A DNA stretch of 64,000 bases from a virus, in IMG/VR virus record IMGVR_UViG_3300006793_000015, positions 32,001 to 96,000 of that record. One strand, 5' to 3'. Under the pieces are notes generated by a model. That model searched no databases. It saw only the letters and a list, made by a program, of their open reading frames with translations, and had not been told where the DNA came from. A program made the translations under genes and the position numbers. Below, in pieces: positions 34,138 through 47,700 of this stretch. Each line of letters opens with the position of its first letter. Position 1 is the first letter of the stretch.

Positions 34138-34317
34138 ATGTCAACAATTCATGAGCAAATCTTAGAGCAAGTCGAAACATACGTTAGCGAATCTTCAAAG
34201 TTTGAGGATAAGGGTGTAAAAGCCGCGGCCGCTCGCGCTCGTAAAGCGTTAGGCGAAATTGGTAAATTAGCTAAAACACGCAGGGCTGAGATTCAAGACA
34301 AAAAGAACGCAATGTAA
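34138..34317 (+). CDS. Histone H1-like (Hc1-type) small basic protein, 59 aa, not in the ORF track
   Basis: Hand translation MSTIHEQILEQVETYVSESSKFEDKGVKAAAARARKALGEIGKLAKTRRAEIQDKKNAM; strong SD TAAGGAG; KGxKAAxxRARK motif. Confidence 0.8.
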   Translation: MSTIHEQILEQVETYVSESSKFEDKGVKAAAARARKALGEIGKLAKTRRAEIQDKKNAM

Positions 34318-34320
34318 TTA

Positions 34321-34824
34321 ATGCCCAGTAAGCAAAAAATTAAAGGCTCTACATGGGAACGCGACGTTGCTAAACACTTATCTGATTTATACAGTGAGAC
34401 GTTTATTCGCGTACCTCATAGCGGGTCTTACATTGGTGGAGTAAACAAAGCAAGGAAGGAATTTTTACACGAAGGACAAATACGTTCTTTTAAAGGAGAT
34501 ATCATTCCAGGTCAAAGTATGCCTTTACTCAATATTGAGTGTAAGGCATATAAAGACTTTCCATTTCATCATTTGTTTGGACAAGACGTAAAACTTTTAG
34601 ATGATTGGATAGCACAGTTGTTAGAGCCTGCTGACGAAGGAGACTTTAACATCTTAATAATGAAATTTAATAGAAAAGGCAAATACATAGCAGTAGAAGA
34701 TAGGCACACCACACTAAAATTCAATAGGCACATTAACTATAAAGGTTGGAACTTTTGTGAGTACGATAATTTTTGGGCTCACAACACTGACCAAGTTAAG
34801 CTTCTCTCAAGTACACAAAACTAA
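34321..34824 (+). CDS. Holliday junction resolvase-like PD-(D/E)xK nuclease
   Basis: KGSTWERDVAK...RVPHSG...GDII...NIECK motif typical of Hjc-like resolvases. Confidence 0.78.
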   Translation: MPSKQKIKGSTWERDVAKHLSDLYSETFIRVPHSGSYIGGVNKARKEFLHEGQIRSFKGDIIPGQSMPLLNIECKAYKDFPFHHLFGQDVKLLDDWIAQLLEPADEGDFNILIMKFNRKGKYIAVEDRHTTLKFNRHINYKGWNFCEYDNFWAHNTDQVKLLSSTQN

Positions 34825-34844
34825 ACTAGGCACAGACACAAGAC

Positions 34845-35180
34845 ATCTACAATGCGGTTAAGACCCGCTCTCCTTGACGGTGTAGCATAAGCACACTGGG
34901 ATTCTGGAGATGATGACAAAAATTTAGCGTATTAATTATTTCAGGGCTAAAAAGACGAGGGTAAAAACCTCGCGTCTATTATTTGTTGAAACTGTAGCAC
35001 TTAATAGATACCGTTTGTTGGCGTGATAGCCAGGAGACTGTGGTAGGGAGTACAGGACAACCGCTTCCGTGTTTAACAACAATCCACAACAGTTTACAGG
35101 TCGGGACTGAAGGAAAAAGTCTAACCACACTTCACCCAGTCGGGTGGAGTGTGAACGGAACTTCGGGAAAAAGTTAATCA
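34845..35180 (+). ncRNA. Candidate large structured non-coding RNA (family not recognised)
   Basis: Non-coding on +, GC-richer than flanks, about nine hand-identified stems with several G-U pairs favouring the + strand and a 7-bp loop-to-3' pairing. Confidence 0.6.
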
Positions 35181-35282
35181 AAAGAACTTTAGTTAAATAG
35201 TATTATACTCTTTTAAAAGTGATTTATATAAATTTAGTTCGAGCTGTAAGCGAAGAACTAGATGAACGTAGTTCATCTCATA

Positions 35283-35993
35283 ATGCAGAAACAAATAAAA
35301 ACATCTTTCGGAAAACAAGAAAATAGAGAAATTATTATTAATGAGATATCTTTGACTGATGTTTCTGCAGAAGAAGAACATTTAGCAATAGAGCAAGGAT
35401 TTCTTATTGATGTTTTAGATGATGAATATTGGTTTATGTCGCGATCCACTCGTGTTATTACTAATAGCGTTGATGCGAAGGAATACGACGGAAAATGGGA
35501 ACTAGTAGAAACTCTTACTCCAGACCTTATTAAGATTCTGCGTAAAATATTAAATCAATACGTACAAAAACATAACTTCAAAGACTTTGAACGGTCATTA
35601 AACGAAACTAAAAGAACAAAGTTTTTTATCTACTATCATAATAGTAGAATAGTTGCGTTTACCAAGATGCAATTTTATCCTGAAATTGATCAAAGCGTAG
35701 AGCATCCACATAAAAGTGTTGAAACATGTATGTTTGCGTGGGACTATAAAAATCCAGAACTACGTCTCGGAGAAGTAACACTACAGCACGAAGTATATTG
35801 GGCACAACAAGAAGGATTTAAGTATTTGTATATAGGTCCTGGGTATGAGAAAAGCAGTATCTATAAATCAAATATTTCTGGATTTGAATGGTGGACAGGT
35901 ATGGAGTGGAGTAAAGATACTGTTGAGTATAAAGAGTTGTGTAAGCGTGACAGTAAAATAAGAAGTTTTAAAGCGTTAACTTCTTTAGACTAG
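35283..35993 (+). CDS. Arginyl/aminoacyl-tRNA--protein transferase (ATE/Bpt)-like GNAT-fold protein; likely start ATG 35283
   Basis: C-terminal FAWDYKNPELRLGEVTLQHEVYWAQQEGFKYLYIGPGYEKSSIYK matches the ATE_C pattern (YDP...LG...L.EI..A...G..YYYLG......YK); ATG 35262 is buried in a hairpin. Confidence 0.6.
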   Translation: MQKQIKTSFGKQENREIIINEISLTDVSAEEEHLAIEQGFLIDVLDDEYWFMSRSTRVITNSVDAKEYDGKWELVETLTPDLIKILRKILNQYVQKHNFKDFERSLNETKRTKFFIYYHNSRIVAFTKMQFYPEIDQSVEHPHKSVETCMFAWDYKNPELRLGEVTLQHEVYWAQQEGFKYLYIGPGYEKSSIYKSNISGFEWWTGMEWSKDTVEYKELCKRDSKIRSFKALTSLD

Positions 35994-36510
35994 CTGGAAT
36001 TTCTTCAAAACGCCAAAGCGTAACCCACTCTAAATAATCTTTAGGCCAATTTTTATAATAGTCTGTGTTTTTTGCAAGTTGTTCTGATGCATGGTTTAAC
36101 ACACTTAGTCTTGCCATTAAACATAAAATACATTTACCAAAGTTTAACACTAATTTACCTATACGCTCTTCACGTTCCGGATGATCATCAAGTATAACAA
36201 TGTCTAGTGGCATTAGTTCGTCATTTACTGCTTCTGTAATATTGGCAACTTCTTCTTCAGAATAGTTTTCAGTTGGAGTTAGTATAGCGATAACCTCTAC
36301 TTTGCCCTCATTGTCCTCGTCAGTCCAGTTACGCCCTAAGTCTAACAAGTGTTCTTCTAAGTCATCATATACAAATTTAAAACGAATTGTATTGTTATCT
36401 ACAGTTGGCTTTGCATAAGGACACACAGGTAGATTACCTAACTCTGCTTGCGGTTTAGCAAGGAAAGTTTTTATCCAGTCTTTTAAATCGTTAATAAGTT
36501 CTTGTTCCAT
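35968..36510 (-). CDS. DUF1415-like protein
   Basis: WIKTFL...NLPVCPYAK and DHP motifs resemble DUF1415. Confidence 0.5.
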   Translation of the reverse strand: MEQELINDLKDWIKTFLAKPQAELGNLPVCPYAKPTVDNNTIRFKFVYDDLEEHLLDLGRNWTDEDNEGKVEVIAILTPTENYSEEEVANITEAVNDELMPLDIVILDDHPEREERIGKLVLNFGKCILCLMARLSVLNHASEQLAKNTDYYKNWPKDYLEWVTLWRFEEIPASLKKLTL

Positions 36511-45721: not shown

Positions 45722-46894
45722 ATGTCAGAACTATTAAATGAAAACTGGAGCGAAACCAAAGACGCACTTTTAGAGGGTCTTTCAGGTTCAGCTCGTAGTA
45801 CAATGGCAGTAACTCTAGAAAATACAAAAAGTTATCTAGCAGAAGCTGCAACAGCCGGCGCATCAACATCAGGTAATGTTGCAACACTTAACAGAGTAAT
45901 TTTACCAGTAATCCGCCGTGTAATGCCATCAGTAATTGCTAACGAAATCGTTGGCGTTCAACCAATGGCAGGTCCAGTGGGCCAAATCCACACATTGAGA
46001 GTACGTTACGCAGACGCATTCACAGGCAGTGCAGGTGGTAACACAACAGCAGGCGAAGAGGCATTAAGCCCATTCAAAGTTGCTGAAGGTTACTCAGGCA
46101 ACGTTGCTTCAGCTGATACAGCAGGCGCAACAGCAGCTAATGAAGGCTCAGCAGGTAACAGACTAAGCATTCAAATCTTGAAGCAACCAGTAGAAGCAAA
46201 GACACGTAAGCTATCAGCACGTTGGACTTTCGAAGCTGCTCAAGATGCTAACTCAATGCACGGTATTGACATGGAAGCAGAAATCATGTCAGCACTAGCA
46301 CAAGAGATTACAGCTGAAATTGATCAAGAGATTCTACGTTCACTACGTGGTATCGCATCAACAGACTTCACATTCGACCAAACAGGCGTTTCAGGTACAG
46401 CAACATACGTTGGTGACGAACACGCCGCATTGGCAGTAACAATGAACCGCGCAGCCAACGCTATCGCACAACGCACACGTCGTGGTGCCGGTAACTGGGC
46501 AGTTGTAGGTACAGACGCACTAACAGCAATTCAATCTGCTTCAACAAGTGCATTTGCTCGTACAACAGAAGGTTCATTTGAAGCACCAGTTAACCAAAAG
46601 ATGGTTGGCACACTAAACGGTGCAATGAAAGTTTACGTTGATACATACCAAGGTACAAACGATTCAGTACTAGTAGGTTATAAGGGTTCAAGCGAAGCAG
46701 ACGCAGCCGCTTTCTATTGCCCATACATTCCTCTAATGTCATCAGGTACAGTATTAGATCCTGATACATTCGAGCCAGTCGTAGGCTTCATGACACGTTA
46801 TGGTTATGTTGCACTAACAAACACAGCATCATCACTAGGTAATGCTGGCGACTACCTACAAAAAATCAACATCTCAAACCTATCATTTGTATAA
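45722..46894 (+). CDS. gp23: Major capsid protein, T4 gp23-like
   Basis: RRVMPSVIANEIVGVQPMAGP, AKTRKLSARWT, AFYCPYIPL, GFMTRYG; YLAE/A cleavage site. Confidence 0.97.
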   Translation: MSELLNENWSETKDALLEGLSGSARSTMAVTLENTKSYLAEAATAGASTSGNVATLNRVILPVIRRVMPSVIANEIVGVQPMAGPVGQIHTLRVRYADAFTGSAGGNTTAGEEALSPFKVAEGYSGNVASADTAGATAANEGSAGNRLSIQILKQPVEAKTRKLSARWTFEAAQDANSMHGIDMEAEIMSALAQEITAEIDQEILRSLRGIASTDFTFDQTGVSGTATYVGDEHAALAVTMNRAANAIAQRTRRGAGNWAVVGTDALTAIQSASTSAFARTTEGSFEAPVNQKMVGTLNGAMKVYVDTYQGTNDSVLVGYKGSSEADAAAFYCPYIPLMSSGTVLDPDTFEPVVGFMTRYGYVALTNTASSLGNAGDYLQKINISNLSFV

Positions 46895-46948: not shown

Positions 46949-47046
46949 CTAAATAATACTGCTTACTAATGGGTAGTAAGTTTATGGGGACTAACCCTCC
47001 TCGTAGCGGATAGAACCCGCAACGGACTTCTAAAAGGAGAAATAAA
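46949..47046 (+). promoter_or_regulatory. Late promoter (CTAAATA) and structured 5' leader of 47047..47700
   Basis: Hairpins gcttacta/tagtaagt and cgt-a-gcgg/ccgc-a-acg; CTTCT and CTCCT both complementary to the AGGAG SD. Confidence 0.5.
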
Positions 47047-47700
47047 ATGGGTAGACCATTAAACAAAAAATATTTTGGTAATACAAATGATTCAGGACTA
47101 GGCGGCGAAGGCGTTGCTTCAGTAACAGTCACAGGCGCTGGTACAGGCTATACAGACGGTGATGCAGTAGTTTTCAGCGCACCTCAACTTCCAGGCGGTG
47201 TTACTGCAACTGGTGTTGTTGTTGATGATGGTGCCGACGGCACAGTTAATTCAATATCAATTACTAATGCAGGTTCAGGCTATACATCAGCACCAACTAT
47301 TGACTTAACAGGAGAAGGTAACGGAGACGCCACAGCAACAGCCACATTAACCACATCTGGTGTTAACGCAATCGCATTTTCATCATATGTTGATGGCGGT
47401 AGCAATCAAACAGACGGCGATATTGTTAAACAAGTAGCCGCAAGACGCTTCAAAGTTACAAACTCAGACGGCACAGGCACATGTAAACTAGTTGCAGCTA
47501 CACCAAGCGCAGCTGGAGAAATGATGATGAGTGCTACGGACTCATCTGGTAAGACATACTATGTAACAAAGATTTCTGCTCGCAAAGCAACTTTAACACA
47601 GTATGGTGCAGGTGGTCATGAATTTACTGACGGCACATCACAAAAGTGGTCATTTGATTCAGCAGTATTAAATGATTCAGTACAATTAGATAATAACTAA
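47047..47700 (+). CDS. Virion structural protein (possible head decoration), 217 aa
   Basis: Directly after capsid; strong SD; capsid-like codon bias; GxGYT..P beta repeats shared with the giant protein. Confidence 0.65.
   Translation: MGRPLNKKYFGNTNDSGLGGEGVASVTVTGAGTGYTDGDAVVFSAPQLPGGVTATGVVVDDGADGTVNSISITNAGSGYTSAPTIDLTGEGNGDATATATLTTSGVNAIAFSSYVDGGSNQTDGDIVKQVAARRFKVTNSDGTGTCKLVAATPSAAGEMMMSATDSSGKTYYVTKISARKATLTQYGAGGHEFTDGTSQKWSFDSAVLNDSVQLDNN

What the first reader, a model, noticed from the sequence alone, without database searches (positions are those of the whole stretch)
34845..35180. Candidate novel large structured RNA with a pseudoknot downstream of the resolvase
Seen: the longest non-coding gap in the window, GC-richer than flanks and tiled with stems: GCGG/CCGC (34854-68); TCTCC/GGAGA (34869-910) enclosing CGGTGT/ACACTG; TTTAGC/GCTAAA (34923-51); CGAGG/CCTCG (34956-72); TCTATTA/TAATAGA (34975-35008) whose loop AAACTGT (34989-95) is complementary to ACAGTTT (35089-95), immediately 3' of TGTGG/CCACA (35039-88), which encloses GGGAGT/GCTTCC; TGGC/GCCA; a 12-bp stem CACACTTCACCC/GGGTGGAGTGTG (35126-53) flanked by two small hairpins that each contain GGAAAAAGT. 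Several pairs are G-U on + (A-C on -), favouring a + strand RNA. I cannot match it to tRNA, tmRNA, RNase P or group I/II introns. Inference: an undescribed multi-domain ncRNA (ribozyme-sized) or an RNA-primed replication origin linked to the recombination genes.
Basis: partly seen in the sequence, partly recalled or inferred. Interest (0 to 1): 0.82.

Follow-up and report, generated by a model that had tools for sequence, protein, structure and literature searches.

The report
Knotted twin-box RNA of T4-like phages
The gene-free gap behind the nuclease gene of this uncultured marine T4-like phage encodes a real, doubly knotted non-coding RNA of about 335 bases. It is a divergent member of a large phage RNA family that is only partly catalogued (Rfam Polynucleobacter-1), shows the same short word twice, and has no known job.

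Summary
Window 34851-35185 (+) folds better than shuffles on the + strand only (z -3.7 against -1.2). It is 82% identical in relatives whose flanking proteins are 78% and 50% identical.

The RNA is not wholly undescribed. Its 3' 220 nt (34966-35185) belong to a domain I modelled (R1). R1 matched all 100 non-redundant IMG/VR loci searched. In 57 of 124 family representatives that domain sits directly 3' of the orphan Rfam motif Polynucleobacter-1 (RF01718, Weinberg 2010). The window has a different 5' domain and fails RF01718.

Family hallmarks, all present here:
- two pseudoknots
- an invariant GUAC.G...ACCGC hairpin
- a 12-bp hairpin
- two 7-nt 'twin boxes' (here GGAAAAA, 35112 and 35166) that differ between phages but stay identical within each RNA

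The upstream nuclease is interchangeable (GIY-YIG or PDDEXK), so it looks like a neighbour, not a partner. Function is unknown. My best guess is a stand-alone trans-acting RNA that presents two identical loops to a paired reader. The origin and primer readings are not supported.

This scan has met the same family before on other DNA (at least 39 genomes). Those notes agree with my independent results.

The parts
34851..35185 (+). Whole structured RNA, about 335 nt. Ends are inferred from where conservation starts and stops, not mapped.
   Evidence: Alignment with L001, L002, L007, L009 and L011; + strand z -3.73; 82% nt identity in L002-6 while flanking proteins are 78% and 50% identical.
34854..34868 (+). 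5' domain hairpin H1 (GCGG/CCGC, loop UUAAGAC)
   Evidence: 100% paired in six sequences, with one compensatory GC to AU change.
34869..34910 (+). 5' domain stem H2 (TCTCC/GGAGA) enclosing hairpin 34878-34898 with the conserved loop AGCAUAAGC
   Evidence: The L007 group reads TCGCC/GGCGA and CACGT/ACGTG (by eye). The MAFFT register is off by one column, so undercounts these pairs.
34923..34951 (+). Hairpin H3 (TTTAGC/GCTAAA), specific to the closest clade. Its 3' arm is part of the junction word GGCUAAAAAGAC (34944-34955), which is shared with Polynucleobacter-1-type loci.
   Evidence: Only 56% of cells paired. The junction word is seen in L036 and in the published flanks.
34956..34972 (+). 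Hairpin H4 (CGAGG/CCTCG)
   Evidence: Kept as TGTGG/CCACA in L007, and as UCGAGG/CCUCAG and similar in distant members.
34966..35185 (+). Shared 3' domain (model R1, 214 positions)
   Evidence: 150.4 bits, E 9e-25. All 100 non-redundant loci searched match end to end or nearly so. It is the only copy in the 114-kb genome record.
34974..35009 (+). Long hairpin P_a whose loop carries the 5' strand of pseudoknot 1
   Evidence: All 12 pairs show changes on both sides in 100 sequences (helices 1-2).
34989..34995 (+). Pseudoknot 1, 5' strand (AAACUGU)
   Evidence: Loop against its own 3' strand gives a helix of mean 7.3 bp, against 4.8 bp with other sequences' strands; 71 distinct helix sequences. 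100% paired with two compensatory changes among close relatives.
35089..35095 (+). Pseudoknot 1, 3' strand (ACAGUUU), directly 3' of P_b
35015..35020 (+). Pseudoknot 2, 5' strand: the linker word UUG(U) after P_a. The register is ambiguous here because the window reads UUUGUUGG.
   Evidence: Mutual information places A3 columns 74-76 with 174-176 among the top signals, with Watson-Crick types UA/CG, GC/AU and AU/UA/GC/CG. 100% paired, helix 9.
35057..35060 (+). Pseudoknot 2, 3' strand: tetraloop ACAA of the invariant core hairpin
35019..35032 (+). Small hairpin TGGC/GCCA, an insertion of the window's clade
   Evidence: Absent in most family members (alignments); 62% of cells paired.
35039..35088 (+). 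Stem P_b (TGTGG/CCACA) enclosing the core hairpin 35046-35068 with invariant G-U-A-C-n-G ... A-C-C-G-C
   Evidence: All five P_b pairs covary. The core hairpin is 93-98% paired with invariant letters in 100 sequences.
35105..35121 (+). Hairpin A carrying twin box A (GGAAAAA at 35112-35118; identity runs to 35120)
   Evidence: Exact repeat. Same-letter covariation of the two boxes gives the strongest mutual-information signals. Boxes are identical over 7-8 nt in 86 of 100 RNAs, with 24 distinct box words among them.
35126..35153 (+). 12-bp hairpin P_e, followed by the conserved GUGUGA
   Evidence: 85.5% of cells paired; 9 of 11 pairs changed on both sides. Annotated as a putative terminator in the 2010 alignment.
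35159..35175 (+). Hairpin B carrying twin box B (GGAAAAA at 35166-35172; identity runs to 35174)
35235..35260 (+). Separate conserved hairpin (stem, GAGC, loop, GCGAA, stem) just before the ATG at 35262. It may be a 3' appendage of the RNA or a signal of its own.
   Evidence: The same motif, with covarying stems, lies roughly 10-130 nt (mostly under 85) 3' of the R1 domain in 64 of 100 loci, whatever gene follows.
34321..34824 (+). Upstream neighbour: PDDEXK_15 nuclease (annotated as a resolvase), last gene of the gp55-gp47-gp46-Hc1 block
   Evidence: Pfam E 2e-24, PHROG 244.

Best explanation
Shown: 34851-35185 (+) is a gene for a structured RNA of about 335 nt with two pseudoknots. It is a divergent member of a large family confined, as far as sampled, to uncultured T4-like phages. 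The family's 3' domain is uncatalogued. Its 5' domain in about half of the members is the Rfam motif Polynucleobacter-1.

Inferred: the RNA is made as the tail of the + strand gp47-gp46-Hc1-nuclease transcript, because no promoter-like or terminator-like site of its own was found. It then acts as a stand-alone, trans-acting RNA.

Proposed mechanism: the knotted core is a rigid scaffold that holds two hairpin loops on either side of a 12-bp helix. Each loop shows the same 7-nt word (here GGAAAAA). The two words are read by a partner that comes in two equal copies. That partner could be a repeated or symmetric nucleic-acid sequence or a dimeric protein. Identity of the two words is therefore selected, while the word itself drifts between phages.

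I put about 0.95 on the identity part and about 0.3 on this mechanism.
For: Real RNA on the + strand:
- Fold z -3.73 on + against -1.22 on -.
- On 100 homologues, 83.5% of cells are paired against 45-51% for slid controls; the covariation score is 0.486 against about 0.10; 30 of 37 pairs changed on both sides; 0 of 500 shuffles reach these values.
- Pseudoknot 1 is kept by 71 different helix sequences.
- Pseudoknot 2 was found by mutual information.

Family:
- The core pattern gave 120 stretches in IMG/VR, of which 116 are members. The same pattern gave 0 members among 120 stretches of bacterial and archaeal genomes.
- R1 hits RF01718-bearing loci (L069 109 bits, L036 99, L042 78, L043 76).
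- 57 of 124 representatives have the Polynucleobacter-1-type 5' domain.

Stand-alone gene:
- Upstream genes vary: GIY-YIG in 61, PDDEXK_15 in 25, others in the rest.
- Both 5' types occur with both nucleases.
- ORFs are inserted between nuclease and RNA in L016, L017, L021 and L035.
- The downstream gene is mostly convergent, so the RNA is not a 5' leader.

Twin boxes:
- Same-letter covariation (A-A 44 / G-G 47 with 3 mixed, and similar columns) gives the strongest signals.
- No complementary partner within 260 nt upstream, 300 nt downstream or the core.
Against: No transcript evidence: nothing here shows that the RNA is made or where it ends.

Neither the box word nor its complement is enriched in up to 14 kb of flanking phage DNA or in the window.

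In most members the word varies only within RGAURAW. Fast coordinated change fits neither a co-evolving protein nor a triple mutation easily. Box divergence is about equal to that of the rest of the RNA.

Co-transcription with the operon is inferred only from the lack of consensus sigma-70 promoter and terminator matches. Phage middle and late promoters are not covered by that scan.
Confidence: 0.5

Rival explanations
1. A cis-acting 3' end element of the recombination operon. The knotted fold blocks 3' exonucleases or stops or insulates transcription where the + strand early or middle unit meets the convergent late baseplate genes.
For: The RNA always sits at the 3' end of a + strand gene block, and in most representatives it faces a convergent T4_baseplate gene (45 directly downstream, 46 as the second gene downstream). 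No promoter of its own was found. The 12-bp hairpin was read as a terminator by the 2010 pipeline.
Against: About 335-440 nt, two covarying pseudoknots and twin boxes are far more than known stabilisers or terminators need. No U-run follows the hairpins. The twin-box identity has no role in this model. The element stays the same when the upstream gene is swapped.
Confidence: 0.2
2. A ribozyme, for example self-processing that releases the RNA from the operon transcript.
For: The size, the two pseudoknots and a handful of strictly invariant nucleotides (GUAC.G...ACCGC, GURUGA) resemble catalytic cores.
Against: No match to any ribozyme family in Rfam, even at E 10. No conserved cleavage-site context was recognised. 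No assay was possible.
Confidence: 0.08
3. A guide or cofactor RNA of the adjacent nuclease. The two identical boxes would pair with the same-sequence strands of the two arms of an inverted-repeat DNA site.
For: A small nuclease gene (GIY-YIG or PDDEXK_15) lies directly upstream on the same strand in about 86 of 124 representatives. The boxes vary between lineages in a guide-like way.
Against: Two unrelated nuclease folds are interchangeable, and both occur with both 5' domain types. Other genes or inserted ORFs can separate nuclease and RNA. Homologues of both nucleases occur widely in cultured phages, and in the four cultured phages searched the GIY-YIG homologue is there without the RNA. 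The position after gp46/gp47 fits an ordinary recombination nuclease. No box complement is enriched nearby.
Confidence: 0.07
4. A replication origin or primer RNA, or a DNA-level element (two direct repeats as iterons around a palindrome).
For: The two boxes are direct repeats about 54 bp apart around an inverted repeat. The element lies next to recombination genes, and T4 origins use transcripts as primers (general knowledge).
Against: Compensatory changes keep pairing rather than sequence. G-U pairs make the signal strand-specific. Pseudoknots 1 and 2 make no sense for duplex DNA. The GC-skew turn near 36000 coincides with the switch of gene strand, so it says nothing about an origin.
Confidence: 0.05

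Closest known systems
Polynucleobacter-1 RNA motif (Rfam RF01718; Weinberg et al. 2010, Genome Biol 11:R31, PMC2864571)
   Same: Same genomic slot: the paper says it lies downstream of GOS11034-family genes resembling P-SSM2 PSSM2_218. In my loci RF01718 sits right after PDDEXK_15 homologues (L036, L042, L043, L059, L066, L069).

The sequence that follows RF01718 in those loci is homologous to window 34966-35185. The junction word GGCUAAAAAGAC is shared. The flanks of the published alignment, including the Polynucleobacter chromosome copy, already contain the core hairpin, the long hairpin and twin boxes (ACUCAGCGAAAGU / AUCUAGCGAAAGU). Function is unknown in both.
   Different: The 141-nt Rfam model covers only the 5' domain. 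The window and its close relatives do not match it, even at E 10, and carry another 5' domain.

Neither the main text nor the supplementary note of the paper mentions the 3' domain, its two pseudoknots or the twin boxes. The family was listed there with 16 members and none in purified phage.
Large ornate bacterial and phage RNAs of unknown function (GOLLD, ROOL, HEARO, OLE, raiA)
   Same: Large, elaborately folded, conserved non-coding RNAs, some phage-borne, found by comparative genomics and lacking a known job (general knowledge).
   Different: No Rfam match to any of them. This RNA is smaller, and twin identical boxes are not a feature described for them, to my knowledge.
Kissing-loop copy-control RNAs (ColE1 RNA I / RNA II)
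   Same: Seven-nucleotide hairpin loops whose sequence sets specificity and changes between lineages (general knowledge). This is an analogy for how the boxes might be read.
   Different: There the partner loops are complementary and come from antisense transcripts. Here the two loops are identical, lie on one strand, and no complementary partner was found.

Membership tests
Polynucleobacter-1 RNA (Rfam RF01718) | Match to the Rfam covariance model at or above its gathering score (37 bits) | tested here: not met
   No RF01718 hit in the window at gathering, nor at E up to 10 on 34700-35350. The close relatives L002 and L007 also give none. L036, L042, L043, L059, L066 and L069 score 87-103 bits.
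Polynucleobacter-1 RNA (Rfam RF01718) | Position directly downstream of the small phage gene family named in the paper (GOS11034 / PSSM2_218-like), on the same strand | tested here: inconclusive
   The window RNA follows a PDDEXK_15 gene, and the RF01718 hits in my loci follow homologues of that gene. I could not check that GOS11034 is this family.
   150.4 bits, E 9e-25, positions 1-214. Note that the window was one of the 18 seed sequences. 82 non-seed loci also match, nearly all full-length.
   7 bp, 34989-95 with 35089-95. Family-wide test; close relatives.
   UUGU (35015-18) or UUG (35018-20) pairs with ACAA (35057-60). Covariation. The register in the window is ambiguous.
A-C-C-G-C, and GURUGA after the long hairpin | tested here: met
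   The window reads GUACAGGACAACCGC (35050-64) and GUGUGA (35149-54).
   GGAAAAAGT at 35112 and 35166; family statistics. The window's flanking letters (CUGAA / CUUCG) depart from the family's usual ACUC / AUCU.
tRNA, tmRNA, RNase P, group I/II introns, riboswitches, known ribozymes | Match to ARAGORN or to the Rfam models | tested here: not met
   ARAGORN finds 0 genes in the window. The only Rfam matches in the gap have E 0.4-6.6 and lie far below gathering.

The most novel reading that the evidence does not exclude
The twin boxes are a new recognition device. One option: the two identical 7-nt loops, held at fixed geometry by a double-pseudoknot scaffold, read a two-fold symmetric or duplicated nucleic-acid target (for example both arms of an inverted repeat, or two copies of a host RNA), making this a phage-encoded programmable RNA. 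The other option: the boxes pair with each other as a parallel-stranded homo-duplex, which would explain same-letter covariation directly. Either would be a principle not described for natural RNAs.
Probability: 0.12. Interest if true: 0.9.

Novelty: new variant of a known kind. Interest (0 to 1): 0.62.

Why it matters
A large, doubly knotted RNA kept at one genomic slot in hundreds of uncultured T4-like phages from lakes and seas is one of the more elaborate orphan RNAs of viruses.

The catalogued motif of 2010 turns out to be only an exchangeable 5' module of it. The conserved heart of the RNA (two pseudoknots, an invariant hairpin and twin boxes) is in no database.

The same-letter covariation of two loops is an unusual evolutionary signature. 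It calls for a partner or a pairing mode that is still unknown. Finding that partner could reveal a new way in which phages use RNA during infection.

For annotation, model R1 together with RF01718 would let these gaps be labelled instead of being left as 'intergenic'.

Tried and rejected
1. Rfam at gathering and at E 10: nothing for the gap.
2. GenBank phages by blastn, with the window RNA and with a typical member: no true match.
3. R1 on four cultured T4-like phages that carry the GIY-YIG homologue (Melnitz, ACP17, BUCT-ZZ01, P-HM1): no hit. This shows nothing about the wider group.
4. Metatranscriptome contigs of four runs, laid on 34300-35700. They cover only pieces of the two flanking genes and leave the RNA uncovered. 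These are contigs from RNA libraries, so this gives no verdict on expression either way.
5. Search for a partner of the boxes, all at background level:
   - complementary helices in 260 nt upstream, 300 nt downstream or the core
   - box or complement counts in the flanking phage DNA
   - the 9-mer complement in the window
6. Ideas tried by eye that did not fit all variants, and dropped: the boxes as Shine-Dalgarno mimics, CsrA-type GGA sites, C/D-box k-turns, complements of tRNA anticodon loops, the 16S 3' end, or a target-site duplication.
7. GC skew as an origin signal: the turn at about 36000 coincides with the change of gene strand.
The 2010 paper reports one Polynucleobacter chromosome copy.

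Full report
**Context.** The window is part of a 114-kb IMG/VR record of an uncultured T4-like myovirus, estimated 32% complete. Upstream on the + strand lie:
- the gp55 late sigma factor
- gp47 (SbcD-like) and gp46 (SbcC-like)
- a 59-aa Hc1-like protein
- a PDDEXK_15 nuclease annotated as a resolvase, at 34321-34824

Downstream lie a + ORF (35262-35993, a weak ATE_C match below cut-off) and then minus-strand genes, including a T4 baseplate protein. Runs that hold this DNA are labelled marine or seawater metagenomes.

**Observation.** The 437-nt gap 34825-35261 is GC-richer than its flanks: 0.44 against 0.29-0.36. The + strand folds at -121.8 kcal/mol, z -3.73, with no shuffle out of 100 as good. 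The reverse strand gives z -1.22.

In IMG/VR relatives found through the nuclease gene, the gap is 97% (L001) and 82% (L002-6) identical. The flanking proteins of L002-6 are only 78% and 50% identical. More distant loci keep a core.

This includes the proposed pseudoknot, where AAACUGU/ACAGUUU becomes AUACUAU/AUAGUAU. Three small stems are clade-specific: TTTAGC/GCTAAA, TGGC/GCCA and the stems of the two small hairpins.

**Family.** A profile of the gap found homologues in 44 of 87 loci, always on the gene strand. The same word in 185,579 bacterial and archaeal genomes gave 120 stretches and no member.

I built a covariance model of the 3' domain (R1, 214 positions, 37 pairs). It matched all 100 non-redundant sources, nearly all end to end, with the window at 150 bits. 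On that alignment:
- 83.5% of cells pair, against 45-51% when partners are slid.
- The covariation score is 0.486 against about 0.10.
- 30 of 37 pairs changed on both sides.
- No shuffle out of 500 reaches these values.

One caveat is that the alignment was fitted to the model. However, the earlier sequence-only MAFFT alignment already gave 76.5% against 45-51%.

**Pseudoknots.** For each RNA I compared the loop of hairpin P_a with the strand just 3' of stem P_b. A loop with its own strand forms helices of mean 7.3 bp. A loop with another RNA's strand forms 4.8 bp. There are 71 distinct helix sequences.

Mutual information then showed a second pseudoknot. The linker word UUGN after P_a pairs with the tetraloop of the invariant core hairpin, with Watson-Crick switching at three columns. 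In the window this is 35015-20 with 35057-60.

**Twin boxes.** The strongest mutual-information signals are not base pairs. They are same-letter covariation between two hairpin loops on either side of the 12-bp hairpin: A-A 44 / G-G 47 with three mixed cells, U-U 55 / A-A 35, and so on.

- In 86 of 100 RNAs the two words are identical over exactly 7-8 nt. Among RNAs with matching boxes, 24 distinct words occur, mostly RGAURAW.
- The window has GGAAAAA(GU) at 35112 and 35166.
- The words diverge about as fast as the rest of the RNA, yet always change together.
- I found no complementary partner in the RNA, in 300 nt around it or in the flanking phage DNA.

**Relation to the known motif.** Rfam finds nothing in the window. 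In six related loci it finds Polynucleobacter-1 (RF01718, 87-103 bits) immediately after the nuclease gene and immediately 5' of the R1 domain. By nhmmer, 57 of 124 representatives have that 5' domain. The window and the others carry a different one.

The 2010 supplement says the motif lies downstream of GOS11034 genes, that its 3' half is not always detected, and that no purified phage had it. The flanks of its Stockholm file, including the Polynucleobacter chromosome copy, contain the core hairpin, the long hairpin (marked there as a terminator) and twin boxes.

So the catalogued motif is an exchangeable 5' module of a larger RNA. The conserved part of that RNA is uncatalogued. The window is a divergent variant that the Rfam model cannot see.

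**Neighbours.**
- The gene just upstream is a GIY-YIG (SegE-like) protein in 61 representatives, PDDEXK_15 in 25, and something else in the rest.
- Both nucleases occur with both 5' types.
- In L016, L017, L021 and L035 an extra ORF separates nuclease and RNA.
- The next gene downstream is usually a convergent baseplate gene, so the RNA is not a leader.
- Homologues of both nucleases occur in cultured phages. In the four cultured phages that I searched with R1, the GIY-YIG gene is there without the RNA.

The nuclease therefore looks like a syntenic neighbour, the recombination nuclease that follows gp46/47, rather than a partner.

**How it may work.** Shown: the RNA, its strand, its fold and its family. 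Inferred: transcription as the tail of the recombination operon. The only basis is that no consensus promoter or terminator was found, and that scan does not cover phage middle or late promoters.

My preferred model, at about 0.3, is a trans-acting scaffold RNA. Its double-pseudoknot core fixes two identical 7-nt loops for a partner that comes in two equal copies. The rivals are a cis-acting 3' end protector or insulator, a ribozyme, a nuclease guide, and an origin or primer. They are listed with their tests. Nothing here shows expression or rules it out.

**Earlier notes of this scan.** After reaching these results I looked the family up. It had been met in at least 39 other genomes, with the same reading: twin-box RNA, relative of Polynucleobacter-1, nuclease a neighbour, function unknown. 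Those notes are not independent evidence. One speaks of three pseudoknots, and I found two.

**Verdict.** This is a real RNA and a new variant of a partly known orphan family. The 'origin' reading is not supported. Function remains open and is interesting.

Noticed in passing
window 46962-47049 (+): A freshwater-2 RNA (Rfam RF02980, 70.4 bits against a gathering score of 49.9) fills the 152-nt gap between two + ORFs (45722-46894 and 47047-47700). It is a second orphan RNA motif in the same phage.
   Followed up: no
window 35235-35260 (+): A conserved hairpin (6-bp stem, GA, GC, loop, GC, GAA, stem) lies directly before the ATG at 35262. The same motif, with covarying stems, lies 3' of the RNA in 64 of 100 family loci, whatever gene follows, and is often followed by AGAC or AGAUG. 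The tandem G-A internal loop suggests a protein-binding or processing signal.
   Followed up: partly
window 35262-35993 (+): This ORF has a weak ATE_C (arginine-tRNA-protein transferase C-terminus) match: E 6.6e-4, 20.7 bits, below the 25-bit cut-off. Homologues follow the RNA only in the closest clade and in L087, where a weak R1 hit (36.8 bits) also precedes the gene.
   Followed up: partly
window 34138-34317 (+): A 59-aa ORF between gp46 and the nuclease matches Pfam Hc1 (histone H1-like protein, E 5.8e-12).
   Followed up: no
PMC2864571, supplement file 101 (NC_009379.1 2130672-2131206): The only cellular copy of the family on record, in a Polynucleobacter chromosome, carries the full 3' domain with twin boxes in the flanks of the published alignment. 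Whether it lies in a prophage remnant was not checked.
   Followed up: no
A3 columns 148 and 365 (window 35034 and 35145): These two columns covary as A-C (39 sequences) and G-U (37 sequences), which are isosteric wobble types. One lies in the purine-rich word before stem P_b, the other in the 3' strand of the 12-bp hairpin. This may be a tertiary contact or just shared ancestry.
   Followed up: no
window 34300-35700; runs X1-X14: Most runs that hold this exact DNA are labelled marine or seawater, the rest plain 'metagenome' or unlabelled. The Rfam motifs linked to it are named for fresh water.
   Followed up: no
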